Assembly: GCA_022703585.1 (NCBI GenBank)
Contig: JAKLDJ010000001.1
Coordinates: forward strand, 440,695-504,694
Reading direction: 5' to 3'
From: Candidatus Omnitrophota bacterium
GTDB lineage: Bacteria; Omnitrophota; Gorgyraeia; Zapsychrales; JAKLDJ01
DNA length: 64,000 nucleotides
The translations under genes and the position numbers were made by a program. Below the pieces are notes generated by a model. The model saw nothing but the letters and a program-made list of their open reading frames with translations, made no database searches and was not told where the DNA came from. Shown one piece after another: positions 36,046 to 62,262 of the stretch; position 1 is the first letter of the stretch; every line of letters begins with the position of its first letter.

Positions 36046-36066
36046 TTAATTGTCCGATAATTGAAA

Positions 36067-36082: not shown

Positions 36083-36094
36083 TTGCCTCGAATT

Positions 36095-36892: not shown

Positions 36893-36901
36893 GGGGGCGT
36901 C

Positions 36902-41193: not shown

Positions 41194-41304
41194 TGTTTGG
41201 AATGTTTTAAGTTTTAAGTGTAAAGTTTTAAGTGGGTAAACTTGCGAAAGACCGAGAGGCGGCACACTTTAAACTTAACACTTTAAACGTGATAACTTAA
41301 TAGC

Positions 41305-41381
41305 GGACTCGTAGCTCAGTTGGTTAGAGCGCTTCCTTGACATGGAAGAGGTCGGAGGTTCGAGCCCCCCCGAGTCCACCA
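41305..41381 (+). tRNA. tRNA-Val (anticodon GAC) with encoded CCA.
   Basis: GGACTCGTAGCTCAGTTGGTTAGAGCGCTTCCTTGACATGGAAGAGGTCGGAGGTTCGAGCCCCCCCGAGTCCACCA. Coordinates ±2. Confidence 0.85.
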
Positions 41382-47448: not shown

Positions 47449-47985
47449 ATGCACAAAATGTTTGTAAGAAAAATTATCGCCGGCATTGTTTGCGTGACTG
47501 TTGTTTTATCTAACGCCGGAGTTCTTTTGGCGAAGAACGATTCCGAGGATGTTCTGCGCGTCACGGCGGCTCAATTAATCCAAAAAGCAAAAGATTTTAA
47601 CGGTAAAACTGTTATAATACAAGGCGAAGTCATCGGCGACGTTATGCCGCGAGGGGAATTTGCCTGGCTTAATATTGATGACACCTCCCATGCGATTGGC
47701 GTGTGGGCGCCTAAAGCCATGGTTTCTGGTATCCGCTACACCGGAGACTATCAATATAAAGGCGATACGATTGAGGTGAGGGGAAGATTTTTTAGGGCTG
47801 ATGCAGACCTAAGCGGGGAATTGTGTATCCGCGCCCAGAAAATTATCACGCTCAAAGAAGGATACCGCACATTCCGCATCCTGCGGCCGGCTAAGGCAGA
47901 AATATCGTTGGCGCTATCGCTGGTGGTTTTTTGTTTGGGCAGTATCATTTTATTTATAAGAAAAAGAACTCCCGCAAGAAAGTAG
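47449..47985 (+). CDS. Hypothetical exported/membrane-anchored protein (N-terminal signal, C-terminal TM).
   Basis: MHKMFVRKIIAGIVCVTVVLSNAGVLLA signal. No recognised domain. Start placed at the internal ATG. Confidence 0.5.
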   Translation: MHKMFVRKIIAGIVCVTVVLSNAGVLLAKNDSEDVLRVTAAQLIQKAKDFNGKTVIIQGEVIGDVMPRGEFAWLNIDDTSHAIGVWAPKAMVSGIRYTGDYQYKGDTIEVRGRFFRADADLSGELCIRAQKIITLKEGYRTFRILRPAKAEISLALSLVVFCLGSIILFIRKRTPARK

Positions 47986-47992: not shown

Positions 47993-49036
47993 ATGTCTTG
48001 GGATTTTGAGAAAATAGAAAACGAAGCAAGACAGGAAATATCCATGGCGCCCGACTCGGCAGCCGTTGAGGCAATTCGCGTTAAGTATCTGGGCCGCAAG
48101 GGCTTAGTATCCGAGATTTATTCGAATCTACCTAATGTCCCCGCAGAGGAAAAGCCCTTAGTCGGAAAAAATGCCAACATCCTAAAGAATAAAGTTACCC
48201 AGTGGCTCCAAGAAAAAGGGCAGACAATCGAAGAGCAAAAACGGCAGCAGTCATCCGCTGAGAAAAGACTCGACGTTACCATGCCCGGAGCCGGCGCAAC
48301 AATCGGCCACCGCCACATCCTGACCCAAACAGTTGATGATATCTGCCGTATTTTTGAGGGGATGGGTTTTGTTACCTTTGAAGGCCCTGAGGTAGAAACG
48401 GAATTTAATAATTTTTCCGCCCTGAATATCCCCATTGATCATCCTTCGCGCGATGCCTTTGATACTTTTTACGTTGACGTCAAAGACCCGGACAAAAAAG
48501 ACAGGTTTCTTTTATTACGCAGCCATACCTCGCCGGCGCAAATCCGGGTTATGAAAAAATACACCCCGCCCTTAGCGGTTATTGTCCCGGGAAAGGTGTA
48601 TCGCCCCGACGCTGTTGACGCCAGCCATTCGTTTATGTTTCATCAGGTAGAAGGGCTTTTGGTTGACGAAAAAGTAAAATTCTCCGATCTTAAAGGGCTG
48701 CTGACGATTTTTTGCCAAAGGCTTTTCGGCGAAGAAATAAAAATGCGTTTTCGCCCGCACTTTTTTCCTTTTACCGAACCTTCCGCTGAAGTAGACATTT
48801 CCTGTTATATCTGCAAAGGAAAGGGTTGCTCGGTTTGCGGCCGCAAAGGCTGGCTCGAGATCTTAGGCTCGGGGATGGTGCATCCGAAGGTTTTTGAGGC
48901 CGTCGGCTATCCTTTAAAGAAATATACCGGGTTTGCCTTTGGCATGGGTGTTGAGCGCATCGCCATGCTTAAATATGGCATTAACGATATCCGCCTGTTC
49001 TTCGAAAACGATACACGGTTTTCGAATCAATTTTAA
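47993..49036 (+). CDS. pheS: Phenylalanine--tRNA ligase alpha subunit.
   Basis: Class II core motifs (FRPHFFPFTEPSAEVD, GFAFGMGVERIAML). Confidence 0.95.
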   Translation: MSWDFEKIENEARQEISMAPDSAAVEAIRVKYLGRKGLVSEIYSNLPNVPAEEKPLVGKNANILKNKVTQWLQEKGQTIEEQKRQQSSAEKRLDVTMPGAGATIGHRHILTQTVDDICRIFEGMGFVTFEGPEVETEFNNFSALNIPIDHPSRDAFDTFYVDVKDPDKKDRFLLLRSHTSPAQIRVMKKYTPPLAVIVPGKVYRPDAVDASHSFMFHQVEGLLVDEKVKFSDLKGLLTIFCQRLFGEEIKMRFRPHFFPFTEPSAEVDISCYICKGKGCSVCGRKGWLEILGSGMVHPKVFEAVGYPLKKYTGFAFGMGVERIAMLKYGINDIRLFFENDTRFSNQF

Positions 49037-49368
49037 TTTCCAGCAATAGCGACTCCCCTGTAAATCAATATACCCCAAGCGCTTATATAATAATTATTGC
49101 GATTTGCTCTTTCGCCAGCGTTTTTATTCAGGTAAGAAAATACGGCAAATTTTCTGAAGAAAATTTGCCGCAAGCGGGGTAAAAAACTTCCTTTAAAAAA
49201 CTGTTTTTGAGGAACCGCTTCCTTAATTTTCCAGGTTACTATTGTTTGCCTCCCCTATATAAGATATACTTTTAATAGAACAATCAGACGCATATTTTCT
49301 TCGGGAAAGGGTAAAATTTTCCGGAGAAGGGCTTTTTTTACCCCAGGGTTTATTTATAGAGGGAAACC

Positions 49369-49458: not shown

Positions 49459-51324
49459 ATGAAAATAATTCTATCTATTGTTACCGCAATTTTGCTGTTG
49501 GCTGTGTTTTTTTCGCCCGCCTACGCCCAGACCGAGACCATGACGCTGACCACCTACTACCCTGCGCCACTGGGATTCTACAGTCAATTAAGACTGGTGC
49601 CGCGTAGCGCGACCTTGGGCCCGCCGGTTACATGCGATAACGCAAGCAAGGCTTCTTCCTTGGGTGTGATGTGGCTTGACGGGAGTCTGGGAGTCGATAC
49701 TCTTAAAATCTGTCAAGACGATGGCACCGGTACTCTTACCTGGACAACTCTTGGTAGCGGTGGCGGCGGCAGCCTTTGGACCAGAACCGGCAGCAATCTT
49801 TATCCCATCAATATAACCGACAATATCGGCGTGGGAACACAAGCACCCCAAGCTCCCTTGCACATACGGAATGGCACTAACCCTAACATTATTCTGGAAT
49901 ATGACCTCAATCACAAATTAGAATTAACCCATAACGGCACCGATGGTGTTATCACGACAGACACGGGAGCTATTCGATTGGAGCCTAACTTGGGCGTGTC
50001 GACGTTCACCGAAATCGGCGGCACGGGCGGCCTGATGAGCACGTTACTAACGACGCGAGGGACGGCGATTCAAGGAATCTCAGAGCAAACCGCAGGCGCA
50101 GGGGATAATACGGGTGTCTATGGTAGGGCTGGCGGAGGGGGATTGACGGCCACAAAATACGGCGTTCAAGGAATCGCAGCCAGCGATGACGCGGGGCTTA
50201 AGGTCGGTGTTTACGGTGAAGCCGGCGGCATTGACGGACGAAAATATGGGGTCTACGGAAGGGTAGCTGCGGATGACTCATCTGATAAATACGCACTCTA
50301 TGCAAGAACGATAGGAGGAAATGTTAGCGCGAATATATACGGTTTAGATACCTGGGCGTTTGGCAATGCCGGTACGAAGTATGGAGTAAACGCATCGGCT
50401 ACCGGCTTGGGCGGGGATAATTATGCTGTAAAGGGCGGGTCCACCAGTGTGGGGGGCACAACAGGCTATGGCCTTTATGGTTCATCTGTGGGAGCGGGAA
50501 CAAATTATGGTGTCTACGCAACCGCCTCCGGGGGCAGCACCAACTATGCCGGGTATTTTGCCGGCGATTTAGCTATAAGCAACCAACCCGCAGGAACGCA
50601 CTCAAGACTTTTTATTAACGGCGATGGCAAGTTGCAAATCACATCCTCCAACAGCCTTAAGAATCGACTGGTTATTGGGGAGCCCCTTGCCAGCATGTCC
50701 ATGGCTAACGCTGCGGGTATGGACATCGGGACTCCCGGGTCACCCGGGGGCGCTAACGCCTTTATAACCCTGGGCACAAACAGCACTAATGAATATGGGT
50801 ACCTGGGGTGGATAGGTACTAACCCCGGGTTCGAATATATTTCACTCCTTTCGACGGGAGGTATTAATTTGATTTCCAGGCTTCCGACCAGTGTCCAGGA
50901 AAACCGTTTGCGTATTACAAACGACGGCCATATTTACCTTGACACGCTTATTTCCGGGGCCGGTAACGCCTCGATACGATACAATACGACGACAAAAGAA
51001 ATAACCTATACTCCGCTTGTTTCTTCAAAGCGCTATAAGAAAGATATCGCAAATCTCGAGTTTGATACGGACGGATTGTATTCTTTGCGGCCCGTTTCGT
51101 TTACGTGGAAAGAGAGCAGCATACGGGATTTTGGCCTTATCGCTGAAGAGGTGGATGAGGTCTTGCCCTCGCTGGTGGCCTATGATGCTCAAGGCAGGCC
51201 CGATAGCGTGGCTTATGACAAGTTACCCGTCCTACTTTTAGTCGAAATGCAAAAACTGCGCGCGGAAAACCGCGCGCTGCAAGAACGCGTCGAGAAGTTA
51301 GAGGCTGCGGTCGGCGCAGAATAA
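49459..51324 (+). CDS. Secreted fibre-like paralog 1 (621 aa): signal peptide, conserved family N-domain, Gly/Tyr-rich repeats, C-terminal Peptidase-S74 intramolecular chaperone domain (as in phage tail fibre/endosialidase).
   Basis: Signal peptide with AYA|QTE cleavage site. N-domain QTETMTLTTYYPAPLGFYSQLRLVPR...LKICQDDGTG...NLYPINITDNIGVGTQAP. YGVxG repeats. C-terminus SSKRYKKDIANLEFDTDGLYSLRPVSFTWK...GLIAEEVDEVLPSLVAYD...coiled coil = S74 signature. Confidence 0.8.
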   Translation: MKIILSIVTAILLLAVFFSPAYAQTETMTLTTYYPAPLGFYSQLRLVPRSATLGPPVTCDNASKASSLGVMWLDGSLGVDTLKICQDDGTGTLTWTTLGSGGGGSLWTRTGSNLYPINITDNIGVGTQAPQAPLHIRNGTNPNIILEYDLNHKLELTHNGTDGVITTDTGAIRLEPNLGVSTFTEIGGTGGLMSTLLTTRGTAIQGISEQTAGAGDNTGVYGRAGGGGLTATKYGVQGIAASDDAGLKVGVYGEAGGIDGRKYGVYGRVAADDSSDKYALYARTIGGNVSANIYGLDTWAFGNAGTKYGVNASATGLGGDNYAVKGGSTSVGGTTGYGLYGSSVGAGTNYGVYATASGGSTNYAGYFAGDLAISNQPAGTHSRLFINGDGKLQITSSNSLKNRLVIGEPLASMSMANAAGMDIGTPGSPGGANAFITLGTNSTNEYGYLGWIGTNPGFEYISLLSTGGINLISRLPTSVQENRLRITNDGHIYLDTLISGAGNASIRYNTTTKEITYTPLVSSKRYKKDIANLEFDTDGLYSLRPVSFTWKESSIRDFGLIAEEVDEVLPSLVAYDAQGRPDSVAYDKLPVLLLVEMQKLRAENRALQERVEKLEAAVGAE

Positions 51325-51421: not shown

Positions 51422-53032
51422 ATGAAAAAACTACGAATTATTATTCTTCTCGTCGTGATGGCGGCTATGGTCGCGGTTACCGCCTACGCCCAGACCGAGA
51501 CCATGACGCTGACGACATATTATCCGGCGCCACTGGGATTTTATAGCCAGTTAAGGCTGGTACCGCGTGACGGGGCCGCCTTGGGCCCACCGGTTACATG
51601 CGATAATGCAAGCCGGATTTCTGCCCTGGGCGTGATGTGGCTTGACTCAAGCTTGGGAGTTGATACTCTTAAAATCTGTCAAGACGACGGCACAGGTACG
51701 GGCACTCTTGCCTGGATGTCTGTTGGCAGTGGTGGTGGCGGAAGTCTTTGGGCCAGAACCGGAAGCAATCTTTATCCAACTAACATAGGAGACAATGTTG
51801 GGGTTGGTACTGCTGCGCCGGAACAAAAATTACACATCGAGGGTGCTTTTCCGACACTTCTTATCAAGGGTACCGGAGCTCCGGGCCTTGTTCTTCGCGA
51901 TACTGATGCTGCCGGCGGTAGCTGGCCGTATATAGCCTTCAGCGGAAATGAAGGCGCGGCTATTACTGGCGATGACAGCTCGCAGGAAATATTCGGGTTT
52001 TATAGCGCTTTCACGGATCCCCGTAGCAACGATGCGGAAATTCGTATCCACGGCAAAGGCGCTGGCTGGGGCAACTATTTATCTTTAACTCACGACGGCA
52101 CCGACGGAATTATTTCAACCGATATTGGTAATATTGCCATTAATCCAGAGCGTGGTGCTAGCCCAAAAGGTGTTGCCATTGGTGTACCGGATGCAAGCTT
52201 AAACAACGCTCAGGCTCTTACTATCGGTAACAATGTTAATGCAGTCGATTGGAGAAACAAACTCGGGTACAACAATATCCGCATTGGTGGCGCCGGAGCC
52301 TTGCCGAATAATTGGCCGATGATCATTTTTGATGATGCAAACCAGGCCAATACACTCTGGTCCCTGTCTAATACTGAGCATTCCAACTACAATGATTTTC
52401 TTATAGAAAAAATCGATACCACATCAGGTATTGGTTCTGCTGTTCTGCTATTAGGAGGTGCCAATAGTTTATCAGCGCTGTTTGGGGTGAGCGGTCCCTG
52501 GGGATTATGGGGTCATAAATTCGAAGGACTTCAGTCAGAGGTCCGGATGGACTCTACCCAACTAATGAATACCTCGAACGTCCGCATAGGCAGAATCGGC
52601 AACGTCAATAACGGCAATGGCGCGGTTATATTAGAAACAACGAGAAACGGCGGCCATCAGGTATTAATGAATATTGATGACAATGGAGTCTTGCAGGTCC
52701 AAGGGGCACTTGCGAGCACGTCATCCAGTTCGCAGTCGCTTACGAGTACGTCATTCAGTTCGAGACGGACATACGGCGTTTATATTGTATCCGATGGCGG
52801 TACCGAAGAATGGAAGACTATCGGCGCATGGGATATGTGTTTTCTTGGGACGCATGCGGAAAATCATTCCCTGGTTGGAGGTCAGTGTGATGTTTATAGC
52901 GATCAACTCCCGCCACCCGACAATACGATCTCGTTTAACCCAAATACGCAACCGACTTGGAAAATACATGCTAAGCGGAATGGAAGCAACGGCACAATAG
53001 CTTGTAGGGCAACCTGCGTGAATTTTCGATAA
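51422..53032 (+). CDS. Secreted fibre-like paralog 2 (536 aa): same N-domain, shared middle module with paralog 5, Cys-containing C-terminal knob, no S74 domain.
   Basis: AYA|QTETMTLTTYYPAPLGFYSQLRLVPR... Module LHIEGAFPTLLIKGTGAPGLVLRDTDAAG...AEIRIHGK...YLSLTHDGTDG. C-terminus ...GTIACRATCVNFR. Confidence 0.8.
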   Translation: MKKLRIIILLVVMAAMVAVTAYAQTETMTLTTYYPAPLGFYSQLRLVPRDGAALGPPVTCDNASRISALGVMWLDSSLGVDTLKICQDDGTGTGTLAWMSVGSGGGGSLWARTGSNLYPTNIGDNVGVGTAAPEQKLHIEGAFPTLLIKGTGAPGLVLRDTDAAGGSWPYIAFSGNEGAAITGDDSSQEIFGFYSAFTDPRSNDAEIRIHGKGAGWGNYLSLTHDGTDGIISTDIGNIAINPERGASPKGVAIGVPDASLNNAQALTIGNNVNAVDWRNKLGYNNIRIGGAGALPNNWPMIIFDDANQANTLWSLSNTEHSNYNDFLIEKIDTTSGIGSAVLLLGGANSLSALFGVSGPWGLWGHKFEGLQSEVRMDSTQLMNTSNVRIGRIGNVNNGNGAVILETTRNGGHQVLMNIDDNGVLQVQGALASTSSSSQSLTSTSFSSRRTYGVYIVSDGGTEEWKTIGAWDMCFLGTHAENHSLVGGQCDVYSDQLPPPDNTISFNPNTQPTWKIHAKRNGSNGTIACRATCVNFR

Positions 53033-53048
53033 TATGCCCTGAAGGACG

Positions 53049-54458
53049 GTGAGGATGAGAAAAACCTTTATGATCTTTCTTGGCGCGGTTTTAGCGATGA
53101 CAGCAACCTTTGCCCTCGCCCAAACCGAATCCATGACACTGACAACGTATTACCCTGCGCCACTGGGATTTTATAGCCAGTTAAGGCTGGTACCGCGTGA
53201 CGGGGCCGCCTTGGGCCCACCGGTTACATGCGATAATGCAAGCCGGATTTCTGCCCTGGGCGTGATGTGGCTTGACTCAAGCTTGGGAGTTGATACTCTT
53301 AAAATCTGTCAAGACGATGGCACTGGCACTCTCACCTGGGTCCCTGTTGGCGGCGGCGGTGGCGGTAGCAGTTTTTGGAATAGAACCGGTACTAATCTTT
53401 ATCCAGTCAACATAGACGACAATATCGGCATCGGGACAAATGCCCCGGCTACTAAGTTGCATGTCCAGGGAGTCGGAGACCCGACAGTAACCATCGAAGT
53501 TACGGGTGGCGGCATGGGACGGCCCACGGTTCAATTTCTCGGTAATAACGGCGTTATTGCAGCTGATGTTGGCGGAAAGGTTGCTATTACCAACAGCACT
53601 GCTATTGATGTTCCGTCCGACTTTGATGAAAATCAGGTCCAGGGTCTCACGATTGTAGGCAGAGCGACACCGATCGATGAAAATATGCATTTGACACACT
53701 CGAACGTTCGTATAGGCAGAGGAACCCTGATGAACGGGCCCATGATACTACTGGATAGCACATCGTCTGACCGCACCTGGTTTATAGAGGCAAATAAAGT
53801 GAATGGTTGGAACGGAGGCGCCACAACGTCTGACCTGACCCTTGGTTACCAGATGATTGGCGGCGCTACCTACAATGCCATGCACATCGGCGGGCCGAAT
53901 AGAAGAGCCGTGCTTTTTGGCTGGGACTCGGGCAATCCCGCCAGCCGTTCTTTTAGCGGGGTGCAATCAGAAGTGACTTTTAGTCCGGCAGCAGCGTTGA
54001 TGAATTCGGGCAATGCGCGTATCGGTGTTGTCCGGTCAGGCAGCCGCTCCGGCGGGGCGCTCATTCTGGAAAGTTATGATGCCACAAATCCCGCGCTCCA
54101 CCCCCAATTTCGGATCTATGCGGATGAAATCGGACAACTCAATTTCGGCCCTGCGGGAGCGATCAGCAAATTCGACGGTAACGTTTGGATTACTAATAGT
54201 TTAAATGTTTCTGGGGCGGGGATGGGACAGCAAACAACTCTGCAGAACACGACGGTGAACGGCGAGCTAACTGTTCCGTTCAATCGTTGGGGAACAGACC
54301 CTGGCGCTGGATCAAACGTAGCGATACCATCAAGTTGTGTTAGGGCTGCTAATAGTGCCGAACAAGGTTGTCAATGTCCCGACGGATCTTACATGGTCGG
54401 TTTCTCTATAACTAACGGCACCAATAATGGTTTTTCAATTTACTGCAGGCGACTCTAA
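53049..54458 (+). CDS. Secreted fibre-like paralog 3 (469 aa): same N-domain (about 160 nt nucleotide-identical to paralog 2), divergent body, Cys-containing C-terminal knob.
   Basis: ALA|QTESMTLTTYYPAPLGFYSQLRLVPRDGAALGPPVTCDNASRISALGVMWLDSSLGVDTLKICQDDGTG. C-terminus ...EQGCQCPDGSYMVGFSITNGTNNGFSIYCRRL. Confidence 0.8.
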   Translation: MRMRKTFMIFLGAVLAMTATFALAQTESMTLTTYYPAPLGFYSQLRLVPRDGAALGPPVTCDNASRISALGVMWLDSSLGVDTLKICQDDGTGTLTWVPVGGGGGGSSFWNRTGTNLYPVNIDDNIGIGTNAPATKLHVQGVGDPTVTIEVTGGGMGRPTVQFLGNNGVIAADVGGKVAITNSTAIDVPSDFDENQVQGLTIVGRATPIDENMHLTHSNVRIGRGTLMNGPMILLDSTSSDRTWFIEANKVNGWNGGATTSDLTLGYQMIGGATYNAMHIGGPNRRAVLFGWDSGNPASRSFSGVQSEVTFSPAAALMNSGNARIGVVRSGSRSGGALILESYDATNPALHPQFRIYADEIGQLNFGPAGAISKFDGNVWITNSLNVSGAGMGQQTTLQNTTVNGELTVPFNRWGTDPGAGSNVAIPSSCVRAANSAEQGCQCPDGSYMVGFSITNGTNNGFSIYCRRL

Positions 54459-54476
54459 ACTTTATCGAGGTGACAT

Positions 54477-56459
54477 ATGGTTGGATTAAAATATCTGATT
54501 ATCTTGGCCGTTCTTCTCATAGGAATCCCCGCCCACGCTCAAACCGAATCCATGACTATGACCACCTATTACCCGGCGCCGCTGGGATTTTATAATCAGA
54601 TGCGTTTGGTGCCTCGTATCGCGGCACCCGGCCCATGTGACCTTACCGATGCGACCTCCTCTCCAGGCCTGATGTGGTTTGACCAGGCAATCAATACTCT
54701 TAAAATCTGTCAAGACGATGGCACCGGCGCAGGTAGTATTGCCTGGATGTCTCTTGGCGGCAGCGGTGGAGGTGGCGGTCTTTGGACCAGAACGGGCAAC
54801 AATCTTTATCCAGCCAACATCGGCGACAGGGTCGGCATCGGGACCGACAATCCCGGCGTGACTCTGGATGTGGTGGGGCAAACCGGGATACGCATTAACG
54901 ATAATATTGATAATTGGCCGGCGCGGATCAGAATGGTTGATACAGTGGTCGAGGGAGCCGGAACAAGAGACGATTTGATGATGGAGACGGACGGCGGCTT
55001 ATTTGTTCAACTGGACAATAATAATAACGGGATTTCGGGCATTGTGGGTTTCGGCATTCTGGACGGGCAAAACAACGTGCTGGTGAACGTGCTCGAGGAT
55101 AATGGCAATGTCGGCATCGGGACAGGGATTGACGCCCCTACTGCCAAGTTGCAAGTTAAAGATGGAGTTGTGCTTTTTGACGGCGATATCGGATCGACTC
55201 CCGTCTCCGGCGTCGGAACACGCTTCATGTGGATACCCGAAAAACATGCGTTACGGGCAGGCCACGTGGCTGAGGAACGGCCTTTGGTGTGGGATGATGC
55301 CAACATAGGGATGAATTCATTCGCGGCCGGCCTTAATCCGGAAGCGAGCGGAGCTCAAAGTATAGCGCTTGGTCAGAACGTAACGGCGCAAGGCCAGCGG
55401 TCGGTAGCGCTAAACAGCGGAACCCAGGCGCTGGGCCTGGGCAGTCTTGCGACGGGAGGCGTCACACAAGCCACGGCAGATTGGAGTACGGCAATGGGGT
55501 TCCGCGCAAGAGCCTTGCATGAAAAGTCATTTGCCATTGGCCTAGATGTGGAAGAAAGCGAACAATGCGATACGACAGCAGAGGGGCAACTTATGCTGTG
55601 CGGTGAAGAGGTTGTTCTGGGCAATCTCAGTTTCGACGGTGCCATATTCCGGCAAGGTGCAACGCTGTATGGAAATCAGGCGGCAACGCATGTGAACTTA
55701 GGTACCGCCGGCACAACCGGTGATGAATTTCTAAATAATACCTATTGTACCGTTTCGGGAGGGCGTAGCAATCAGGCAAAAGGAAGCTTTTCGACTGTCG
55801 CGGGAGGTGAGAACAACTACACTCTTTTTAATGCGACCCATGGTACGGTCTCGGGAGGACGGTGGAATTCAGCTCAAGGTGATTATGCGACTTCTCCCGG
55901 AGGCTGGGATAACGATGCTATGGGCCAATATTCGTTTGCAGCCGGACGAGAGGCCAAGGCCGATGATGTGGGGTCTTTTGTCTGGTCCGCCAGCAGCTCA
56001 GGTGCGGAGTGCCATTCCAGCGGTGACTACAGCTTTACGGCCTGTGCGCCGGGAGGGGTTTTCTTGAGGGGGGAAGTTTTTTTGCCGAACATCCATATCG
56101 GTCCGCCGCCCGGTTCGATGTTTCAATATAGCCTGTACATGAATGAGAATTTTCAAGTATGGAGGATGGGATCCTCGAAGCGCTACAAAAAAGACATCAG
56201 TGATTTGGAAATAAATTCTGAGAAAATCTATGGATTGCGTCCGGTGTCGTTTACCTGGATCAGCGGTGGCCAGCGGGATTTTGGCCTTATTGCCGAAGAA
56301 ACAGAAGCTGTTATGCCGGAATTAGTATCGTTTGACAAAGACGGCACTCCCGAGAGCGTGCGTTATGACCAGTTGCCGGTTTTGTTGCTTAACGAAATCA
56401 AGAAACTCAACGAAAGAATAACCGTGCTTGAGCAACGGCTGGAGATATACGAGAAATAA
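54477..56459 (+). CDS. Secreted fibre-like paralog 4 (660 aa): same N-domain, divergent body, C-terminal Peptidase-S74 chaperone domain.
   Basis: AHA|QTESMTMTTYYPAPLGFYNQMRLVPR. C-terminus SSKRYKKDISDLEINSEKIYGLRPVSFTWISGGQRDFGLIAEETEAVMPELVSFD...LEQRLEIYEK. Confidence 0.8.
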   Translation: MVGLKYLIILAVLLIGIPAHAQTESMTMTTYYPAPLGFYNQMRLVPRIAAPGPCDLTDATSSPGLMWFDQAINTLKICQDDGTGAGSIAWMSLGGSGGGGGLWTRTGNNLYPANIGDRVGIGTDNPGVTLDVVGQTGIRINDNIDNWPARIRMVDTVVEGAGTRDDLMMETDGGLFVQLDNNNNGISGIVGFGILDGQNNVLVNVLEDNGNVGIGTGIDAPTAKLQVKDGVVLFDGDIGSTPVSGVGTRFMWIPEKHALRAGHVAEERPLVWDDANIGMNSFAAGLNPEASGAQSIALGQNVTAQGQRSVALNSGTQALGLGSLATGGVTQATADWSTAMGFRARALHEKSFAIGLDVEESEQCDTTAEGQLMLCGEEVVLGNLSFDGAIFRQGATLYGNQAATHVNLGTAGTTGDEFLNNTYCTVSGGRSNQAKGSFSTVAGGENNYTLFNATHGTVSGGRWNSAQGDYATSPGGWDNDAMGQYSFAAGREAKADDVGSFVWSASSSGAECHSSGDYSFTACAPGGVFLRGEVFLPNIHIGPPPGSMFQYSLYMNENFQVWRMGSSKRYKKDISDLEINSEKIYGLRPVSFTWISGGQRDFGLIAEETEAVMPELVSFDKDGTPESVRYDQLPVLLLNEIKKLNERITVLEQRLEIYEK

Positions 56460-56501: not shown

Positions 56502-58241
56502 ATGAAGAAACTATTTCTCGCCGTTTTAATTTCGACATTGGTGACAACTGTCACTCATGCCCAGACCGAGTCTATGAATCTAACCACCTACTACCCGGCG
56601 CCGATGGGAAATTATAACCAGTTGCGCTTGGTCCCGCGCGGAGGTGCACCGGTAACCTGCAATAACGCCAATCCGGATTCCGCGGGTGTGATGTGGTTTA
56701 ATCAGGCAACCAATAGTTTTCATATCTGTCAAGACGATGGCACAGGTGTTATTACCTGGGTATCTATCGGCGGCGTTGGCGGCGGCAATCTTTGGGCCAG
56801 AACCGGCAATAATCTTTATCCAGCCAACCTAGGCGATAATGTCGGCATCGGAACCCAAACACCGCAACAAAAACTGCATATCGAAGGCGCTTTTCCAATA
56901 CTGCTTATCCGCGGTACCGGAGCCCCGGCCCTTGTCCTTGACGATACCGATGCTGCCGGCAGCCGGCCTTTTATAAAATTCGGCGGAAACAGCCTGGGAG
57001 CTTTCATCGGACAAGACTCCTGGCATCAGACATTTGAATTTTATAGCGACTTTCAGCTTACCCGCGCTCACGACGCGGAAATCCGCGTCCACGGCAAAGC
57101 CCCCGGCGGCAGTTGGGATAGATATTTATCATTAACCCACGACGGGACAGACGGGTACATTGAAACAGATGTCGGCGACATTGTTATTAATCCGAAAGAG
57201 ACGGATGTAGCCATACCCGAGCCGGCATTATCCATTGATGCTGCCTCAAAAAATATAGGAATACGCACCAGCGACGTGACTCCTCAGGCAACTGTTCAAA
57301 TCGGCAATAACCTGGGTTTTGGATGGGCTCCGCATGCCCTGACTGTCGGAGGTGCGGGTTCGGTCGGGGGCTCGGTGGCGGTCGGTGTAAACAGCAGCAA
57401 AATGGGGGTTTTCCAGCATTCTGCCGCAGGCACTTCGACCGACGTTAGCTCTACGGATGACCTGCGCTTAGGGGCAGCCGGTTCTATTTATCAATCTACG
57501 GCAGGATTAAATCGCATGAAAATCGATACCGGCGGTTCTATTGCTATGTATGCGAATGATGGCGCACTAACGGCTTTTCAAATGGCCAGTACAGGGTCAA
57601 TGTTTTTTCAGGGCCCGGCTTCTTTTAGCCAGCCTCTGAGTATCGGCAACAGTATTGACGATGACGTGGATGTTAGCTTGGGAGAGCACAATACTGTTTG
57701 TTGGGATTCGAAATGTATTCGCGGGATCAATTCGCCCGGCGGCAGCTGGCTTCAGTTCGGGCACTTTGTTTCCGGGGCATGGGATACCGTAATGTCTTTG
57801 GCGACTGCGCCGTCTACAGGATTGGGTATTAGCGGCTCTTTGAATATATCGGGCACAGCCACTAAACCGGGCGGCGGGCCCTGGAGCGCTTCTTCTGATG
57901 CCCGTCTTAAAAAGAATATTGCGTCGATCGATAATGCACTTGACACCATGCTTTCTCTTCGCGGAGTTACCTTTGAGTGGAGAGAACCGGAAAAGCAAGG
58001 CAATCTGACCGGGCCGCAGATGGGCCTGATTGCCCAAGAAGCAGAAAAGGTGTTTCCTCAGTGGGTGACGACCGGAGAAGACGGTTATAAGATTTTGTCG
58101 ATCCGGGGATTCGAAGCCCTCGCCATCGAGGCCATGCGCGACATGAAAAAAGAGATCGATCAGCTAAAACAGGAAAATCAAGAGTTGCGCCGGGAACTTG
58201 ATACGCTTAAGAAAGTTCCCGACGGAGATTCTCCTATTTAG
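56502..58241 (+). CDS. Secreted fibre-like paralog 5 (579 aa): same N-domain, paralog-2-type middle module, C-terminal Peptidase-S74 chaperone domain.
   Basis: THA|QTESMNLTTYYPAPMGNYNQLRLVPR. Module LHIEGAFPILLIRGTGAPALVLDDTDAAG...AEIRVHGK...YLSLTHDGTDG. C-terminus SSDARLKKNIASIDNALDTMLSLRGVTFEWRE...GLIAQEAEKVFPQWV...coiled coil. Confidence 0.8.
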   Translation: MKKLFLAVLISTLVTTVTHAQTESMNLTTYYPAPMGNYNQLRLVPRGGAPVTCNNANPDSAGVMWFNQATNSFHICQDDGTGVITWVSIGGVGGGNLWARTGNNLYPANLGDNVGIGTQTPQQKLHIEGAFPILLIRGTGAPALVLDDTDAAGSRPFIKFGGNSLGAFIGQDSWHQTFEFYSDFQLTRAHDAEIRVHGKAPGGSWDRYLSLTHDGTDGYIETDVGDIVINPKETDVAIPEPALSIDAASKNIGIRTSDVTPQATVQIGNNLGFGWAPHALTVGGAGSVGGSVAVGVNSSKMGVFQHSAAGTSTDVSSTDDLRLGAAGSIYQSTAGLNRMKIDTGGSIAMYANDGALTAFQMASTGSMFFQGPASFSQPLSIGNSIDDDVDVSLGEHNTVCWDSKCIRGINSPGGSWLQFGHFVSGAWDTVMSLATAPSTGLGISGSLNISGTATKPGGGPWSASSDARLKKNIASIDNALDTMLSLRGVTFEWREPEKQGNLTGPQMGLIAQEAEKVFPQWVTTGEDGYKILSIRGFEALAIEAMRDMKKEIDQLKQENQELRRELDTLKKVPDGDSPI

Positions 58242-58451: not shown

Positions 58452-60491
58452 ATGAAATTATCCTATAACTGGCTTAAAAATTATATCGCGGTCAACGTGA
58501 ACGCCGAAACCCTAGCCCACAAACTCACCATGGCGGGCTTGGAGGTTAAGGCGATTGACACGGTTGACAGCGACAGCGTATTTGAAATAGAAATCACGCC
58601 TAACCGTCCGGATTGCTTAAGCGTCCTGGGCATTGCCCGTGAGGCGTCGGCGATTTTTAATAAGCCTCTCAAGATCCCCGCTGTTAAGAACTTAAAACTT
58701 CCCAAACAAAAATGTGACCTGGCGATCCTGGATAAAAAGGATTGTTTGCGCTATATCGGCTGTCTCATAAATAATGTTTCGGTCAGGCAATCCCCTGAAT
58801 GGATCAAAAAACCTTTAACCGCCGTAGAACTGCGCACCATTAACAACGTTGTCGATATTACGAATTTTGGCCTTATGGAAACCGGCCAGCCCATGCACGC
58901 CTTTGACTTTGACAAGTTAGCCGGGGGAAAGATTATTGTCCGCCGCGCCAAGGAGGGCGAAAAAATCATTACCATCGATGGTATTGAGAGAAAACTTGAT
59001 CCCTCGATTTTGGTTATTGCCGACGAGAAAAAGACAGTGGCCATTGCCGGTATCATGGGCGGGAAGGAAACCGAGGTTACCGAATCGACAAAAAATATTC
59101 TGTTGGAAAGTGCCTACTTTGAACCGATTTTGATAAGGCGCGCCGGGCGTAAGCTGGGCTTGAGCACGGACGCGTCGTATCGTTTTGAGCGCGGGGTTGA
59201 CATGGAGGGGGTTGAGCAGGGTGCCCGGCGCGCCACTGCGCTTATCTGCCAAGAAGCGGGCGGCAGCATTCAGGGGTATTTTGATTTATATCCCGGTAAA
59301 CGAAAAGATGTAAAACGCCAAACCAGCATTACCAAAAATCAAATTGACGAATTTTTAGGTGCCCCCATTTCGCTTGAGCGGGGCAAGGCTATTTTAAACA
59401 GGCTCGGGTTTAAAACCGCCAACGGCGCCAAAGGTGCGTTAAAGATTTCTATTCCCCCTTTTAGAAACGATGTCAAAGGCGATGTCGATATCATCGAGGA
59501 GATTGCCCGGGTCGTGGGTTATGATAATTTGCCCGTGACCTTGCCCGAGGTAAAATTTTCTAATGTGGCTGTGAATCCGAATCGGATTCTAAGAAAGAGG
59601 GTAACGGACAGCCTTCTGGCCTTAGGGCTTAACGAAGCCGTCAGCTATTCGATGACCAGCCGAAAGAATATTGAGGCCGCAAAGCTTGACTCTGCGCTTG
59701 CCGTCAAAGTCAAAAACCCCTTAACCCTCGAGCAGGAATGTTTAAGATTTTCGATGCTGCCCAGCTTATTGGAACTGATATCGATTAATCTCAACCGCGG
59801 GCAGAGGGATATAAAATTCTTCGAGGCCGGAAAAACCTATTTTACCGACGGAGAGAAAGAAACCTTGGGGATTATCATGTCGGGGCACCTATCGGTCGAC
59901 TGGCGAAAAGGCATCAAGGCCGAGGCAGATTTTTATGACATCAAGGGCGTGATTGAAAATACCCTCGAAAAAATCGGCGTTACACCTGTTGAATGGGTAC
60001 CGAACAAGTCTCCCGTATTCGAACCGGGGCAGGGTGCCGAGATTATTTTAAATGGCGAGGCTGTCGGCGCCTTAGGGGCAATAGCCGCCGAGATTTTGCA
60101 CCGGTGGGACATAAAGCAAAAGGGTATTTTGTTTGCCGAACTTGATTTGGAAACAATATATGCCCAGGCGGCTAAAAAAACCGCCGGACGAAAATACTGC
60201 CCCCTGCCGACTTTTCCGGCGGTGGTACGAGATTTAAGCCTGGCTATTAAAAGCGAAGTCAGTTTTCAACAGGTCCGCGAAACAATCCAAAAGACCGCCG
60301 GAGACCTTTTAGCCTCGGTTAAATTAATAGAACAGTATTTAGGCGAAAAAATTCCGCCGGGTCAGCGCGGATTAGTCCTTTCCTTGACTTATCAATCCTC
60401 GGCACGGACGCTGCGCGAAGATGAAGTGAATCAAGCTCACGAGAAAATCTGCAAAGCCCTGATTGACACCTTCGGCGCTGTCCGACGATAA
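58452..60491 (+). CDS. pheT: Phenylalanine--tRNA ligase beta subunit (short form lacking the EMAP-like tRNA-binding insert).
   Basis: MKLSYNWLKNYI... B1 N-terminus, B3/4 and B5 domains, C-terminal anticodon-binding. 679 aa. Confidence 0.95.
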   Translation: MKLSYNWLKNYIAVNVNAETLAHKLTMAGLEVKAIDTVDSDSVFEIEITPNRPDCLSVLGIAREASAIFNKPLKIPAVKNLKLPKQKCDLAILDKKDCLRYIGCLINNVSVRQSPEWIKKPLTAVELRTINNVVDITNFGLMETGQPMHAFDFDKLAGGKIIVRRAKEGEKIITIDGIERKLDPSILVIADEKKTVAIAGIMGGKETEVTESTKNILLESAYFEPILIRRAGRKLGLSTDASYRFERGVDMEGVEQGARRATALICQEAGGSIQGYFDLYPGKRKDVKRQTSITKNQIDEFLGAPISLERGKAILNRLGFKTANGAKGALKISIPPFRNDVKGDVDIIEEIARVVGYDNLPVTLPEVKFSNVAVNPNRILRKRVTDSLLALGLNEAVSYSMTSRKNIEAAKLDSALAVKVKNPLTLEQECLRFSMLPSLLELISINLNRGQRDIKFFEAGKTYFTDGEKETLGIIMSGHLSVDWRKGIKAEADFYDIKGVIENTLEKIGVTPVEWVPNKSPVFEPGQGAEIILNGEAVGALGAIAAEILHRWDIKQKGILFAELDLETIYAQAAKKTAGRKYCPLPTFPAVVRDLSLAIKSEVSFQQVRETIQKTAGDLLASVKLIEQYLGEKIPPGQRGLVLSLTYQSSARTLREDEVNQAHEKICKALIDTFGAVRR

Positions 60492-60843
60492 ATTTATCCT
60501 CTTTAGTCATTGAAAGCCCTTAGGGGGCTGTGTTATAATCCATTATCGATTGATAAAAATCCCTGCTTTGTTCGTTGGGGAACAGATGTAATGAACCAAC
60601 ACATTACAATCGGGCGCCGGACTTCTAATTGCCTGAGGGCAATTTAGAGAGGCACCCACGTTAACGATGGGGTTCACTTACCCTTTACCTAACGGCACGG
60701 TGGGGACTTAATAAGCACGCGGCTTATGGACTGCGGCCTTAAGGCTCAGGAACATAAGTTGCTGTGTGCATTAGCACCGCCGCTAGCATCGGCTGCCTGC
60801 TAACAGGCAGACGATGCGGCGGTGTAAATCCTCGGCATCCCCC

Positions 60844-62262
60844 ATGAAACCCAAACCCAATTCGTCCAGCGCACCCCAAAATCTTTTTTCGCCCACTTTT
60901 AATACCAAAGAACCGCAGCCGGGATTATTCGAATGGTCTTCCAAGGTCTCCTTAAAAGATTTTCCTTTAAGCGTGCGGATGCGCCCGCAAAAACTCGAAG
61001 AATGTGTGGGCCAAGGCCATATTTTGGGTGAGGGAAAACTTTTAACCCGCGCCATCGAGGCCGACCGGATTAACTCCTTGATCCTTTACGGGCCTCCGGG
61101 CTGCGGAAAAACTACCATTGCCTACTGTGTCAGCAAAAAAACACAATCCCATTTTGAAGCGGTCAACGCGGTTTCTTCCAACGTTGAAGAATTAAGAAAA
61201 ATCACCGCATCGGCCAAACATCGCTGGCAGTCAACGGCTATTAAAACCATCCTTTTTATTGACGAGATTCACCGTTTTAATAAAGCCCAGCAGGAAGTTT
61301 TGATGCCCGACCTTGAGGATGGCTATATTATCCTGATCGGCGCGACGGTTTTAAATCCGTTTTTTTCTCTTATCGGCCCGCTGTTGTCACGGTCGCTTAT
61401 TTTTGAACTGCAGGCTTTGACCAAAGAAGATATCGTTTCTGTCTTACAACGCGCTCTCAACGATAAAGAGCGTGGGCTGGGGAATCTATCGATTAAGGCC
61501 GATAACAAGGCGCTTGAATTCTTAGCTGCTATTTCCGACGGGGACGCGCGCCGGGCGCTCAATGCCCTGGAGGTCGGTTGCCGGACAACCCCCAAAGACA
61601 AAGAAGGCATTATCCGTTTTACTCTGGATGTAGCCCAGGAATCCATTCAAAAGAAACAGGTCAATTATGACCGGGACGGCGACGCCCATTATGATACTAT
61701 TTCTGCATTTATAAAATCCATGCGCGGCTCGGATCCCGATGCCGCATTGTACTGGCTGGCCAAAATGATTTATGCCGGCGAAGACCCGCGGTTTATCGCC
61801 CGGCGGATCTGTATCTGTGCGGCCGAGGATGTAGGCAATGCCGATCCCCAGGCGCTTATTTTAGCTAACGCGGCTTTTCAGGTCTGCGAATTTATCGGCA
61901 TGCCCGAGGCCCGGATTCCCCTGGCCCAAGCAGCTGTTTATATTGCCTGCGCTCCAAAATCCAATGCCGCTTACACGGGACTGGAAAAGGCTTTATCCGA
62001 CGTGAAAGAAAACCGCACCAAACCGGTCCCGGCACATTTAAAAGACGCTTCCTATCCCGGCGCCAAGCAGTTAGGCCACGGCCAGGGCTATAAATACGCC
62101 CACAGTTACGAAGGCCATTACGTCGAGCAGGAATATGTTCCGGGCAAGAATGTTTATTACCGGCCGACTGATTTGGGATTTGAGAAAGAGATCAAAAAAA
62201 GACTGCAGGATTTGCGCCAGGGTTTAGGATTGGGAAAAAAAGAGCCAAACCGGGCCCCCTAA
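60844..62262 (+). CDS. rarA: Replication-associated recombination protein A (RarA/MgsA AAA+ ATPase).
   Basis: VRMRPQKLEECVGQGHILG, Walker A GPPGCGKTT, Walker B FIDEIHRFNK, C-terminal MgsA domain. The track's ORF starts 30 nt earlier. The ATG at 60844 is used. Confidence 0.88.
   Translation: MKPKPNSSSAPQNLFSPTFNTKEPQPGLFEWSSKVSLKDFPLSVRMRPQKLEECVGQGHILGEGKLLTRAIEADRINSLILYGPPGCGKTTIAYCVSKKTQSHFEAVNAVSSNVEELRKITASAKHRWQSTAIKTILFIDEIHRFNKAQQEVLMPDLEDGYIILIGATVLNPFFSLIGPLLSRSLIFELQALTKEDIVSVLQRALNDKERGLGNLSIKADNKALEFLAAISDGDARRALNALEVGCRTTPKDKEGIIRFTLDVAQESIQKKQVNYDRDGDAHYDTISAFIKSMRGSDPDAALYWLAKMIYAGEDPRFIARRICICAAEDVGNADPQALILANAAFQVCEFIGMPEARIPLAQAAVYIACAPKSNAAYTGLEKALSDVKENRTKPVPAHLKDASYPGAKQLGHGQGYKYAHSYEGHYVEQEYVPGKNVYYRPTDLGFEKEIKKRLQDLRQGLGLGKKEPNRAP

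What the first reader, a model, noticed from the sequence alone, without database searches (positions are those of the whole stretch)
51520..53320. Nucleotide-identical ~160-nt block shared by paralogs 2 and 3, and a 23-nt identical core in paralogs 1-4
The N-domain coding sequence from gcgccactgggattttatagccag to aaaatctgtcaagacga is 100% identical between paralog 2 (~51528-51686) and paralog 3 (~53158-53316), including all synonymous sites. Flanking codons differ at synonymous positions, and the rest of the two genes is unrelated. Paralog 1 encodes almost the same peptide with many synonymous changes. A core actcttaaaatctgtcaagacga (encoding LKICQDD) is nucleotide-identical in paralogs 1-4 and 20 nt of it in paralog 5. 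Identity beyond codon constraint points to recent gene conversion or a conserved recombination site that lets C-terminal cassettes be exchanged behind a constant N-terminal handle, as in an antigenic or receptor-specificity variation system.
Basis: seen in the sequence. Interest (0 to 1): 0.7.

Follow-up and report, generated by a model that had tools for sequence, protein, structure and literature searches.

The report
Gene conversion among surface-fibre gene copies
Five neighbouring genes for phage-tail-fibre-like surface proteins in an uncultivated Omnitrophota bacterium share a constant front end, and a 161-base stretch of it was recently copied from one gene into its neighbour by ordinary recombination, not by a dedicated switching system.

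Summary
Window 51527-51687 (paralog 2) and 53157-53317 (paralog 3) are identical over 161 nt, in frame. All 51 degenerate codons inside match, against 25 of 51 in the flanks (Fisher 4e-10). None of 20,000 codon-column permutations reached 161 nt. An independent assembly carries the same sequence.

The shared core is 25 nt in paralogs 1-4, 31-34 nt in paralogs 1, 3 and 4, and 20 nt in paralog 5. It uses non-preferred codons but is only modestly beyond chance.

Paralog 2 is a three-way mosaic: p1-like, then p3-identical, then p5-like. The best explanation is homologous gene conversion among tandem paralogs.

The genes lie between pheS and pheT in a Candidatus Omnitrophota MAG. Each encodes a signal peptide, a conserved N module of about 115 aa (TTYYPAPxGxY motif, two-Cys domain, no Pfam or PDB match) and a variable fibre. 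Three end in a Peptidase_S74 chaperone domain and two do not. This matches the architecture of Bdellovibrio MAT fibres.

N modules are homogenised within the genome while C-terminal modules are older than the lineage. Other Omnitrophota arrays show similar 5' identity blocks.

I found no silent cassettes, recombinase, inverted repeats or allelic variants, so a programmed variation system is not supported.

The parts
49459..51324 (+). Paralog 1 (621 aa): signal peptide, N module to about 49866, variable fibre, C-terminal Peptidase_S74 chaperone domain (Ser-Lys motif SSKRYK at 51022-51039).
   Evidence: ORF; PF13884 E=2e-10; PHROG tail-fibre hits; motif.
51422..53032 (+). Paralog 2 (536 aa): signal peptide, N module to about 51838, orphan Cys-containing C-terminal part without S74. 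Three-way mosaic: 51488-51515 p1-like, 51527-51687 identical to p3, 51810-52150 p5-like.
53049..54458 (+). Paralog 3 (469 aa from GTG 53049; 467 aa as called in public assemblies from ATG 53055): signal peptide, N module to about 53465, orphan Cys-containing C-terminal part without S74.
54477..56459 (+). Paralog 4 (660 aa): N module to about 54872, YadA-head/UspA1-like repeats below Pfam cut-offs, and a Peptidase_S74 domain (SSKRYK at 56172-56189).
56502..58241 (+). Paralog 5 (579 aa): N module to about 56882, a segment homologous to p2 (56559-57193), tail-fibre-like C-terminus with Peptidase_S74 (SDARLK at 57894-57911) and a terminal coiled coil.
   Evidence: PDB 6f45 long tail fibre distal subunit E=1.3e-9.
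51527..51687 (+). Conversion tract, copy in paralog 2 (161 nt, codons 36-88 plus 2 nt; encodes APLGFYSQLRLVPRDGAALGPPVTCDNASRISALGVMWLDSSLGVDTLKICQD).
53157..53317 (+). Conversion tract, copy in paralog 3, identical to 51527-51687.
   Evidence: reproduced in an independent assembly, L102.
49697..49721 (+). 25-nt shared core ATACTCTTAAAATCTGTCAAGACGA in p1. The same 25 nt occur at 51663-51687 (p2), 53293-53317 (p3) and 54694-54718 (p4). The run extends to 34 nt between p1 and p4.
56724..56743 (+).
49517..49550 (+). 34-nt exact run shared by p1 and p2 (= 51480-51513) across the signal-peptide cleavage site and the QTETMTL residues. A second candidate conversion tract, not significant on its own.
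47993..49036 (+). pheS, the upstream flank of the array. A 422-nt spacer follows, with a terminator-like hairpin at 49295-49330.
58452..60491 (+). pheT, the downstream flank of the array.

Best explanation
The region is a tandem family of five complete, co-oriented genes inserted between pheS and pheT of a Candidatus Omnitrophota chromosome.

Each protein has four parts: a Sec-type signal peptide; a conserved N module of about 115 residues; a Gly-rich linker; and a variable fibre part. The N module has the motif QTE-x-MTLTTYYPAPLGFY-x-QLRLVPR at the predicted mature N-terminus, then a small beta domain with two conserved cysteines, then one copy of a widespread fibre repeat (NVGIGT..P..KLH). 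The fibre part ends in an S74 intramolecular-chaperone domain in p1, p4 and p5, and in an orphan Cys-containing domain in p2 and p3.

The 161-nt identity between p2 and p3 is a recent non-reciprocal homologous recombination event, that is, ectopic gene conversion between adjacent paralogs. It overwrote one copy with the other across the TTYYP-motif end and the Cys domain. It is the latest of repeated exchanges. These have made p2 a p1 / p3 / p5 mosaic and keep the N modules of all five genes similar to one another, while the distal parts stay old and divergent.

The 25-34-nt core is most simply the residue of such exchanges in the most constrained peptide segment. It is also long enough to seed further RecA-type exchange.

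Inferred, not shown: the N module is a common handle that docks every fibre to the same cell-envelope partner, so homogenisation is tolerated or favoured. The variable distal parts bind different targets on other cells, as in Bdellovibrio MAT fibres.
For: Tract statistics:
- Exact 161-nt tract, in frame.
- 0 of 20,000 permutations reach it.
- Same codon at 51/51 sites inside against 25/51 outside, P = 4e-10.
- Flanks are 60-78% identical.

Mosaic structure:
- The sliding identity profile of p2 switches best partner from p1 to p3 to p5.
- There is a 34-nt exact run between p1 and p2.
- p2 and p5 are 70% identical over 51488-52146 / 56559-57193.

Reality of the sequence:
- Independent assembly GCA_035916415.1 is 100% identical over 51546-54856 and covers both copies.
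- The p2 and p3 proteins are carried unchanged on 10-11 contigs.

Concerted evolution:
- N modules are 62-94% identical within the genome but 29-38% identical to those of the syntenic genes in L010.
- The p5 S74 end is 55% identical to L010b but about 30% to p1 and p4.

Generality:
- Other Omnitrophota arrays have exact 5' runs of 120, 106, 96 and 77 nt between tandem paralogs.

Protein identity:
- PF13884 and PHROG tail-fibre hits for p1, p4 and p5, and PDB 6f45 for p5.
- The N module has no Pfam or NCBIfam family.
- The MAT architecture is taken from PMC10769870.
Against: - The donor and direction of the conversion cannot be determined without an outgroup.
- No close relative (>45% identity in the N module) was found in genome or metagenome collections, so population-level recombination could not be observed.
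- The excess identity at the 25-nt core is only modest. Pairwise permutation gives P = 0.003-0.008 uncorrected, and 7 consecutive same-codon columns occur where the 4-way same-codon rate is 19/61.
- The docking function of the N module and the target-binding function of the tips are inferences from architecture, not tested.
Confidence: 0.85

Rival explanations
1. A programmed variation system. The conserved core would be a dedicated recombination site at which C-terminal cassettes are swapped behind a constant N-terminal handle at high frequency, as in antigenic or receptor-specificity switching of the pilE/pilS, shufflon or DGR type.
For: The core is identical in four paralogs with non-preferred codons (ACT 10%, CTT 19%, TGT 36%, CAA 41% genome usage). 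The right end of the 161-nt tract coincides with the right end of the core. The genes are mosaic.
Against: - All five genes are full length, each with its own start codon, ribosome-binding site and signal peptide.
- No truncated or silent copies occur in the 64 kb.
- No long, well-matched inverted repeats lie in or around the array.
- Neighbours are housekeeping genes (thrS, infC, rplT, trk, pheS, pheT, rarA), with no invertase, integrase or reverse transcriptase.
- Each protein is a singleton 90% cluster, identical on 4-7 contigs and in 3 NCBI MAGs.
- The tract end is set by a single p2-specific synonymous C.
- Identity blocks in other genomes lie at other positions.
Confidence: 0.06
2. Assembly or consensus artefact. 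A short-read assembler collapsed or cross-threaded two similar paralog segments and produced a false identical block.
For: The window comes from a metagenome assembly (SPAdes-style NODE name). A fragmented independent assembly breaks its contig inside the repeat, which shows that assemblers struggle here.
Against: The independent assembly (L102) gives exactly the same sequence over 3,311 nt. It covers 142 nt of the p2 copy and the whole p3 copy, each joined to its own unique flank. The same proteins are recovered on at least 10 contigs from several sources. Comparable blocks occur in unrelated MAGs from other assemblies.
Confidence: 0.04
3. Selection on the nucleotide sequence itself. The block or the core would hold an embedded functional element such as an RNA structure, an internal promoter or a regulatory binding site.
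For: Synonymous-site conservation clusters at TLKICQD(D) and NLY(P) in all paralogs. A sigma-70-like match, TTGACC-16-TAAAAT, has its -10 box in the core of p4.
Against: - The full 161-nt identity is confined to p2 and p3; p1, p4 and p5 differ by 16-24% there.
- RNA folding of the block gives z = -1.7, and the core regions give z about 0 in all five genes.
- Promoter-like sites are fewer than in shuffles, and only p4 has a workable spacer.
- Rfam finds nothing in the array.
- The residues encoded by the core (LKICQDD) are not conserved in the syntenic L010 genes.
Confidence: 0.04
4. A very recent duplication of p2/p3, followed by rapid divergence everywhere except the block.
For: p2 and p3 are adjacent and are each other's closest relatives in the N module (94% aa over 78 aligned residues).
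Against: Immediately outside the block, synonymous codons differ at about half of identical residues. The remainder of the genes is about 60% identical at the nucleotide level and 36% at the protein level. A sharp switch from no synonymous differences to about half of synonymous codons differing cannot arise from uniform divergence after one duplication.
Confidence: 0.01

Closest known systems
Ectopic gene conversion and concerted evolution in bacterial multigene families (for example tufA/tufB, Neisseria opa, and the conserved N-terminal regions of phage tail-fibre genes); named from established knowledge.
   Same: A stepwise block of complete identity, synonymous sites included, between otherwise diverged paralogs. 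Mosaic genes. The module that must fit a common partner is homogenised.
   Different: The setting is new: an uncultivated Omnitrophota lineage, surface-fibre genes between pheS and pheT, and an N module with no described family.
MAT (mosaic adhesive trimer) fibres of Bdellovibrio bacteriovorus (Caulton et al. 2024, PMC10769870).
   Same: Signal peptide followed directly by a conserved beta-rich N domain of about 130 aa with no PDB homologue. Variable fibre tips. S74 and non-S74 subgroups (here 3 and 2). Multiple copies per genome, and 'tip swapping' was proposed for them. The paper's Supplementary Table S3 already lists one Omnitrophica protein as MAT-like.
   Different: Sequence or fold homology of the TTYYP module to the Bdellovibrio N domain could not be tested here. 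The proteins here are shorter (469-660 aa, against typically about 1,000 aa). They are tandem, in one locus inside the pheST region. Surface display and trimerisation are not shown.
Phage tail fibres and tailspikes with a C-terminal intramolecular chaperone (Pfam PF13884; T5 pb1, endosialidase, S16 gp37).
   Same: p1, p4 and p5 match PF13884 and PHROG tail-fibre families and keep the Ser-x4-Lys motif.
   Different: They carry Sec signal peptides and sit in a chromosomal housekeeping context 16-25 kb from oriC. No phage genes are nearby, and no relatives were found in viral contigs.
Cassette-based variation systems (Neisseria pilE/pilS, Borrelia vlsE, the Rci shufflon, Mu Gin/P1 Cin tail-fibre inversion, DGRs); named from established knowledge.
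   Same: A constant N-terminal part with variable C-terminal parts, and recombination within the conserved part.
   Different: There are no silent cassettes, invertase, inverted repeats, or reverse transcriptase with template repeat. All copies are complete genes, and no variants were seen between assemblies.

Membership tests
Ectopic gene-conversion tract | A run of identity significantly longer than the pair's overall divergence predicts. | tested here: met
   161 nt; 0 of 20,000 codon-column permutations reach it, maximum 101.
Ectopic gene-conversion tract | Synonymous sites identical inside the tract and diverged outside it. | tested here: met
   51/51 same codons inside against 25/51 outside, Fisher P = 3.9e-10.
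Ectopic gene-conversion tract | The closest relative changes along the gene (mosaic, phylogenetic incongruence). | tested here: met
   p2 is closest to p1, then p3, then p5 along its length.
Ectopic gene-conversion tract | Not an assembly artefact: both copies are reproduced independently. | tested here: met
   L102 from GCA_035916415.1 is 100% identical over 51546-54856. Read-level confirmation was not possible.
Ectopic gene-conversion tract | Donor and recipient polarity from an outgroup. | not testable with these tools
   No relative above about 45% N-module identity in any collection searched.
MAT-type surface fibre (Bdellovibrio) | N-terminal Sec signal peptide. | tested here: met
   By inspection of the sequences: a K/R n-region, a hydrophobic core and A-x-A before QTE in all five. 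No predictor was run.
MAT-type surface fibre (Bdellovibrio) | [quoted passage not shown] | tested here: met
MAT-type surface fibre (Bdellovibrio) | Homology of the N domain to the Bdellovibrio MAT N domain. | not testable with these tools
   No Bdellovibrio MAT N-domain sequence or model was accessible.
MAT-type surface fibre (Bdellovibrio) | S74 chaperone/protease end (Ser...Lys motif) in some members and non-S74 tips in others. | tested here: met
   PF13884 in p1, p4 and p5, with SSKRYK / SDARLK motifs; none in p2 and p3.
MAT-type surface fibre (Bdellovibrio) | Trimeric fibre displayed on the cell surface and binding prey or host. | not testable with these tools
   Needs experiment or multimer modelling.
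Programmed cassette variation (pilE/pilS, shufflon/invertase, DGR) | Silent, truncated donor cassettes beside one expression locus. | tested here: not met
   Five complete ORFs, each with a start codon; a purine-rich SD-like sequence upstream of four (weak for p5). tblastn finds no further copies in the 64 kb.
Programmed cassette variation (pilE/pilS, shufflon/invertase, DGR) | A site-specific recombinase with inverted-repeat sites, or a reverse transcriptase with a template repeat. | tested here: not met
   Most inverted repeats in 48.9-58.6 kb are 70-88% complementary over 16-27 nt; two 16-nt pairs reach 94% but involve intergenic or C-terminal sequence, not the N modules. Annotated neighbours are housekeeping genes. 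Not every ORF of the window was scanned.
Programmed cassette variation (pilE/pilS, shufflon/invertase, DGR) | Alternative alleles or cassette orders between or within populations. | tested here: inconclusive
   No variant at 90% identity or more in about 15 billion proteins, and the same neighbours on at least 10 contigs. Consensus assemblies would hide minority variants.
Prophage tail-fibre gene | Phage structural or integration genes in the neighbourhood. | tested here: not met
   Context is thrS-infC-rpmI-rplT-trkAAH-pheS-[array]-pheT-6S-rarA, near dnaA. No relative in viral contigs.

The most novel reading that the evidence does not exclude
The TTYYPxPxGxY module, placed directly after the signal peptide, would be an undescribed lineage-wide docking or sorting handle of Omnitrophota and Elusimicrobiota. 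It is carried by small secreted proteins of about 130 aa and by sets of phage-like fibres (15 or more loci in some MAGs), and it is persistently encoded in or beside the pheST operon. Within each genome, gene conversion would keep all handles compatible with one envelope partner, while ancient distal modules are reshuffled behind it. That would give these uncultivated, putatively epibiotic or predatory nanobacteria an evolvable host-recognition toolkit analogous to phage tail-fibre sets.
Probability: 0.3. Interest if true: 0.6.

Novelty: new member of a known kind. Interest (0 to 1): 0.38.

Why it matters
Gene conversion between paralogs is textbook, so the finding as stated is not surprising. 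Its value is as a marker. It shows that an uncharacterised family of secreted, phage-tail-fibre-like proteins in Omnitrophota evolves as 'constant handle plus exchangeable tip'. This is the same logic as Bdellovibrio MAT fibres and phage receptor-binding proteins. Omnitrophota are uncultivated and are thought to live attached to, or preying on, other cells (PMC10066038). A defined set of candidate host-recognition fibres, with a recognisable N-terminal signature (TTYYPxPxGxY) and a conserved genomic address (pheS-pheT), gives concrete targets for metatranscriptomics, cryo-ET and heterologous binding assays. For genome curators there is a practical point: the identical block breaks short-read contigs (L102), so these arrays are likely to be under-assembled in MAGs.

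Tried and rejected
- **Close relatives.** I looked for close relatives or strain variants to observe recombination directly. The genome-contig scan, the metagenome-contig scan, three word-indexed protein searches and cluster look-ups gave nothing above about 45% identity and no variants.
- **Exhaustive profile search.** This search was swamped by giant repeat proteins that match the NVGIGT..P..KLH repeat at the end of the N module. It was uninformative for the TTYYP part.
- **Word-indexed search reliability.** The tool missed the window's own paralogs, so its negative results are weak.
- **Phage origin.** No viral-contig relatives were found and the genomic context is housekeeping. Rejected.
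- **Invertible or shufflon-type DNA.** No long or well-matched inverted repeats were found that would mark an invertible segment. Rejected.
- **RNA element.** Rfam found nothing in the array and the folding z-scores were not significant. Rejected.
- **Codon bias as the cause of core identity.** The core uses rare or non-preferred codons. Rejected.
- **Conserved neighbours of small homologues.** No shared assembly or secretion genes were found.
- **Literature.** No paper mentions the motif, or tail fibres in Omnitrophota. The exception is one line in the MAT paper's Supplementary Table S3.
Full report
**1. What is at the coordinates**

The finding lies in an array of five co-oriented ORFs:
- p1, 49459-51324
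- p2, 51422-53032
- p3, 53049-54458
- p4, 54477-56459
- p5, 56502-58241

The array sits between pheS (47993-49036) and pheT (58452-60491). Spacers between the five genes are 18-97 nt, and four of the five have a purine-rich Shine-Dalgarno-like sequence upstream (weak for p5). A 422-nt spacer with a terminator-like hairpin (49295-49330) separates pheS from p1.

Public records name the organism Candidatus Omnitrophota bacterium. They annotate p1, p4 and p5 as 'tail fiber domain-containing protein' and p2 and p3 as hypothetical. The wider context is thrS-infC-rpmI-rplT-trkA-trkA-trkH-hypothetical-pheS-[array]-pheT-6S RNA-rarA. The replication origin (dnaN, dnaA, yidC, parA, parB) is 16-25 kb upstream.

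**2. Check of the observation**

The p2/p3 block is real.
- It is 161 nt long, 51527-51687 = 53157-53317, and begins on a codon boundary in both genes.
- It is the longest exact repeat in the array; the next longest are 34 nt.
- Across all ten paralog pairs, identical residues use the same codon only 47-63% of the time, except 75% for p2/p3.
- For p2/p3 the split is 51/51 same codons inside the block and 25/51 outside (Fisher P = 3.9e-10). There are 0 amino-acid differences in 53 codons inside and 24 in 83 outside.
- Shuffling codon columns of the N-module alignment 20,000 times never gave a run of 161 nt (maximum 101, mean 32).
- Flanking nucleotide identity is 78% in the 36 nt upstream, 71% to the end of the N module, and 60% in the signal-peptide region and in the rest of the gene.
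- p1 is 84% identical to the block, with many synonymous changes.

The 23-mer is exact in p1-p4, and none of 100 shuffles of the window gave a match.
- The shared run is 25 nt (ATACTCTTAAAATCTGTCAAGACGA) and extends to 31-34 nt among p1, p3 and p4.
- p5 shares a 20-nt run (ATCTGTCAAGACGATGGCAC) that overlaps the 23-mer by 14 nt.
- Its codons are not the preferred ones: ACT 10%, CTT 19%, TGT 36%, CAA 41% of their families in other genes of the window.
- The excess is modest. Pairwise permutation gives P = 0.003-0.008 uncorrected for p4 against p1-p3. Seven consecutive same-codon columns occur where the four-way same-codon rate is 19/61.

p2 and p3 are not unrelated outside the block: they align over 1-406 / 3-342 at 43% identity.

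**3. Is it an artefact?**

A second public assembly (GCA_035916415.1, contig JAMIMZ010001055.1, locus L102) is 100% identical to window 51546-54856. It contains 142 nt of the p2 copy and the whole p3 copy, each joined to its own unique sequence. That contig starts inside the repeat and ends in the p4 N module, so assemblers break there but do not produce a different sequence. The p2 and p3 proteins are carried unchanged on 10-11 contigs. I rate an artefact as unlikely.

**4. What the genes are**

All five proteins start with a typical Sec signal peptide: a K/R n-region, a hydrophobic core and A-x-A before QTE. This is by inspection.

The predicted mature N-terminus is QTE(T/S)M(T/N)(L/M)TTYYPAP(L/M)G(F/N)Y-x-Q(L/M)RLVPR. 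It is followed by:
- a segment of about 50 residues with two invariant cysteines;
- a Gly-rich linker;
- one copy of a repeat, LW-x-RTG-x-NLYP...NVGIGT..P..KLH.

That repeat is widespread. A profile containing it hit 82,659 proteins, and the top hits were giant proteins with 20-60 copies.

Beyond about residue 140 the proteins diverge to 30-40% identity.
- p1, p4 and p5 end in Pfam PF13884 (Peptidase_S74, the endosialidase intramolecular chaperone). They carry a Ser-x4-Lys motif (SSKRYK, SSKRYK, SDARLK) and match many PHROG tail-fibre families.
- p5 matches PDB 6f45, a phage long tail fibre distal subunit.
- p4 has sub-threshold YadA-head-like repeats.
- p2 and p3 have orphan, cysteine-containing C-terminal parts with no hits.

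The N module matches no Pfam or NCBIfam model. This holds even when 70 family members are scanned.

**5. The family elsewhere**

The N module occurs in 74 loci of Omnitrophota and Elusimicrobiota MAGs, at no more than 40% identity. Often only the signal peptide plus the TTYYP motif is shared. Some MAGs carry many loci: 15 in nzgw325 and 9 in NC_groundwater_667. Most database homologues are small secreted proteins of 100-190 aa. Tandem arrays of 2-4 copies are common.

The association with pheST recurs:
- L023 has two such genes between pheS and pheT.
- L010 has one between them and one just after pheT.
- L042 has one just after pheT.

In these genomes pheS is 55-68% identical to the window's pheS. 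No conserved assembly or secretion genes accompany the small homologues.

**6. Evidence for recombination beyond the one tract**

p2 is a mosaic. Its best match is p1 at 51488-51515 (93%, with a 34-nt exact run 49517-49550 = 51480-51513). It is p3 at 51527-51687 (100%). It is p5 at about 51810-52150 (74-87%).

Across genomes the two ends of the proteins tell opposite stories.
- The S74 end of p5 is 55% identical to that of L010b but about 30% to those of p1 and p4.
- The N module of p5 is 62-68% identical to those of p1-p4 but 35% to that of L010b.

So the distal modules predate the split of these lineages, while the N modules have been homogenised within the genome or repeatedly re-joined to local copies. 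The same pattern appears in other MAGs. The N module is more conserved than the rest, for example L051 at 96% against 45% and L017 at 87% against 56%. Exact 5' runs between tandem paralogs reach 120 nt in L039, 106 nt in L031, 96 nt in L009 and 77 nt in L070. These blocks sit at different positions of the 5' region. That argues for generic homologous recombination rather than a fixed site.

**7. Tests of the 'programmed variation system' reading**

- No truncated or silent copies occur in the window.
- No notable inverted repeats occur in the array.
- No recombinase or reverse transcriptase is among the annotated neighbours.
- No Rfam family matches in the array.
- There is no significant RNA structure in the block (z = -1.7) or around the core in any paralog (z about 0).
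- A sigma-70-like match whose -10 box lies in the core exists only in p4. Such matches are fewer than in shuffled sequence.
- Each of the five proteins is a singleton at 90% clustering among about 15 billion proteins, and each is found identically in three NCBI MAGs.

These results do not exclude rare variants hidden by consensus assemblies. They give no support for a dedicated switching mechanism.

**8. Mechanism proposed**

Shown:
- a recent gene-conversion tract of at least 161 nt between p2 and p3, bounded by synonymous differences at 51526 and 51688;
- a mosaic p2;
- within-genome homogenisation of the N module.

Inferred:
- Conversion is by the general homologous recombination machinery acting on tandem repeats, with short identical stretches such as the 25-34-nt core serving as both product and seed.
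- The N module is a common handle that attaches each fibre to one envelope partner.
- The distal parts are target-binding tips, and the S74 domains assist trimer folding and are cleaved off, as in phage fibres.

**9. Comparison with known systems**

The closest functional analogue is the MAT (mosaic adhesive trimer) family of Bdellovibrio bacteriovorus. Its features are a signal peptide, a conserved beta-rich N domain of about 130 aa with no PDB homologue, S74 and non-S74 tips, 21 copies per genome, and proposed tip swapping. Supplementary Table S3 of that paper lists one Omnitrophica protein as MAT-like (PMC10769870).

The architecture-level criteria are met here.

Omnitrophota are proposed to be host-dependent, possibly predatory or parasitic (PMC10066038). 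That makes a host-recognition role plausible but unproven.

**10. Verdict**

Gene conversion is the explanation. The antigenic-variation-type interpretation is not supported. As a phenomenon it is a new member of a known kind. The more interesting by-products are the undescribed TTYYP N module, its link to pheST, and the MAT-like architecture in an uncultivated phylum.

Noticed in passing
window 30419-37753: Probable chromosomal replication origin. The genes are dnaN (30419-31516, -), dnaA (31663-32991, -), yidC (34154-35782, +), parA (36083-36892) and parB (36902-37753). Gene strand switches here, the cumulative GC-skew minimum lies at about 33-34 kb, and 34-36 kb is AT-rich (GC 0.36-0.38).
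   Followed up: partly
window 60557-60710 (+): 6S RNA (Rfam RF00013, 56 bits) between pheT and the rarA/mgsA-like AAA ATPase gene (60814-62262).
   Followed up: no
window 40827-41378 (+) and 24784-24857 (-): Three clustered tRNA genes upstream of thrS, and one further tRNA on the minus strand.
   Followed up: no
window 565-5697 (-): A 1,710-aa hybrid sensor kinase with a receiver domain, many PAS domains, a GAF domain, HisKA and HATPase_c.
   Followed up: partly
window 47449-47985 (+); L010 5655-6185: A 178-aa hypothetical protein with an N-terminal and a C-terminal hydrophobic segment and no Pfam match. It lies between trkH and pheS and is conserved in the same position in another Omnitrophota MAG (35% identity).
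   Followed up: partly
L023 7346-13646; L010 6137-11503; L042 6879-10126: Genes carrying the TTYYP N module are repeatedly placed between or just after pheS and pheT in other Omnitrophota MAGs, so the link with the pheST operon is conserved although copy number differs (1, 2 or 5).
   Followed up: partly
L102 (GCA_035916415.1 JAMIMZ010001055.1) = window 51546-54856: An independent short contig starts inside the p2 copy of the identical block and ends in the p4 N module. The repeats fragment short-read assemblies, so such arrays are probably under-represented in MAGs.
   Followed up: yes
window 54679-54706 (+): A sigma-70-like match (TTGACC, 16 nt, TAAAAT; 10 of 12) inside p4, with its -10 hexamer in the shared 25-nt core. 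p1-p3 have a 22-nt spacer, and the scan found fewer sites than in shuffles, so it is probably chance.
   Followed up: partly
proteins P0162-P0206 and similar (alignment A5): Many small (about 130-aa) homologues of the N module end in a conserved Cys-rich tail (KVVCVK.DGK.GVC.NNPSADGTC.CQ). p2 and p3 of the window and other members end in different Cys-containing tails (...CC[KQP], ...YCRRL). These may be a separate small tip domain.
   Followed up: no
window 51797-51838 and equivalents; The last about 40 residues of the N module (LW.RTG.NLYP...NVGIGT..P..KLH) are one copy of a repeat found 20-60 times in giant proteins of 2,000-7,900 aa in public metagenomes (82,659 proteins at E <= 0.001).
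   Followed up: no
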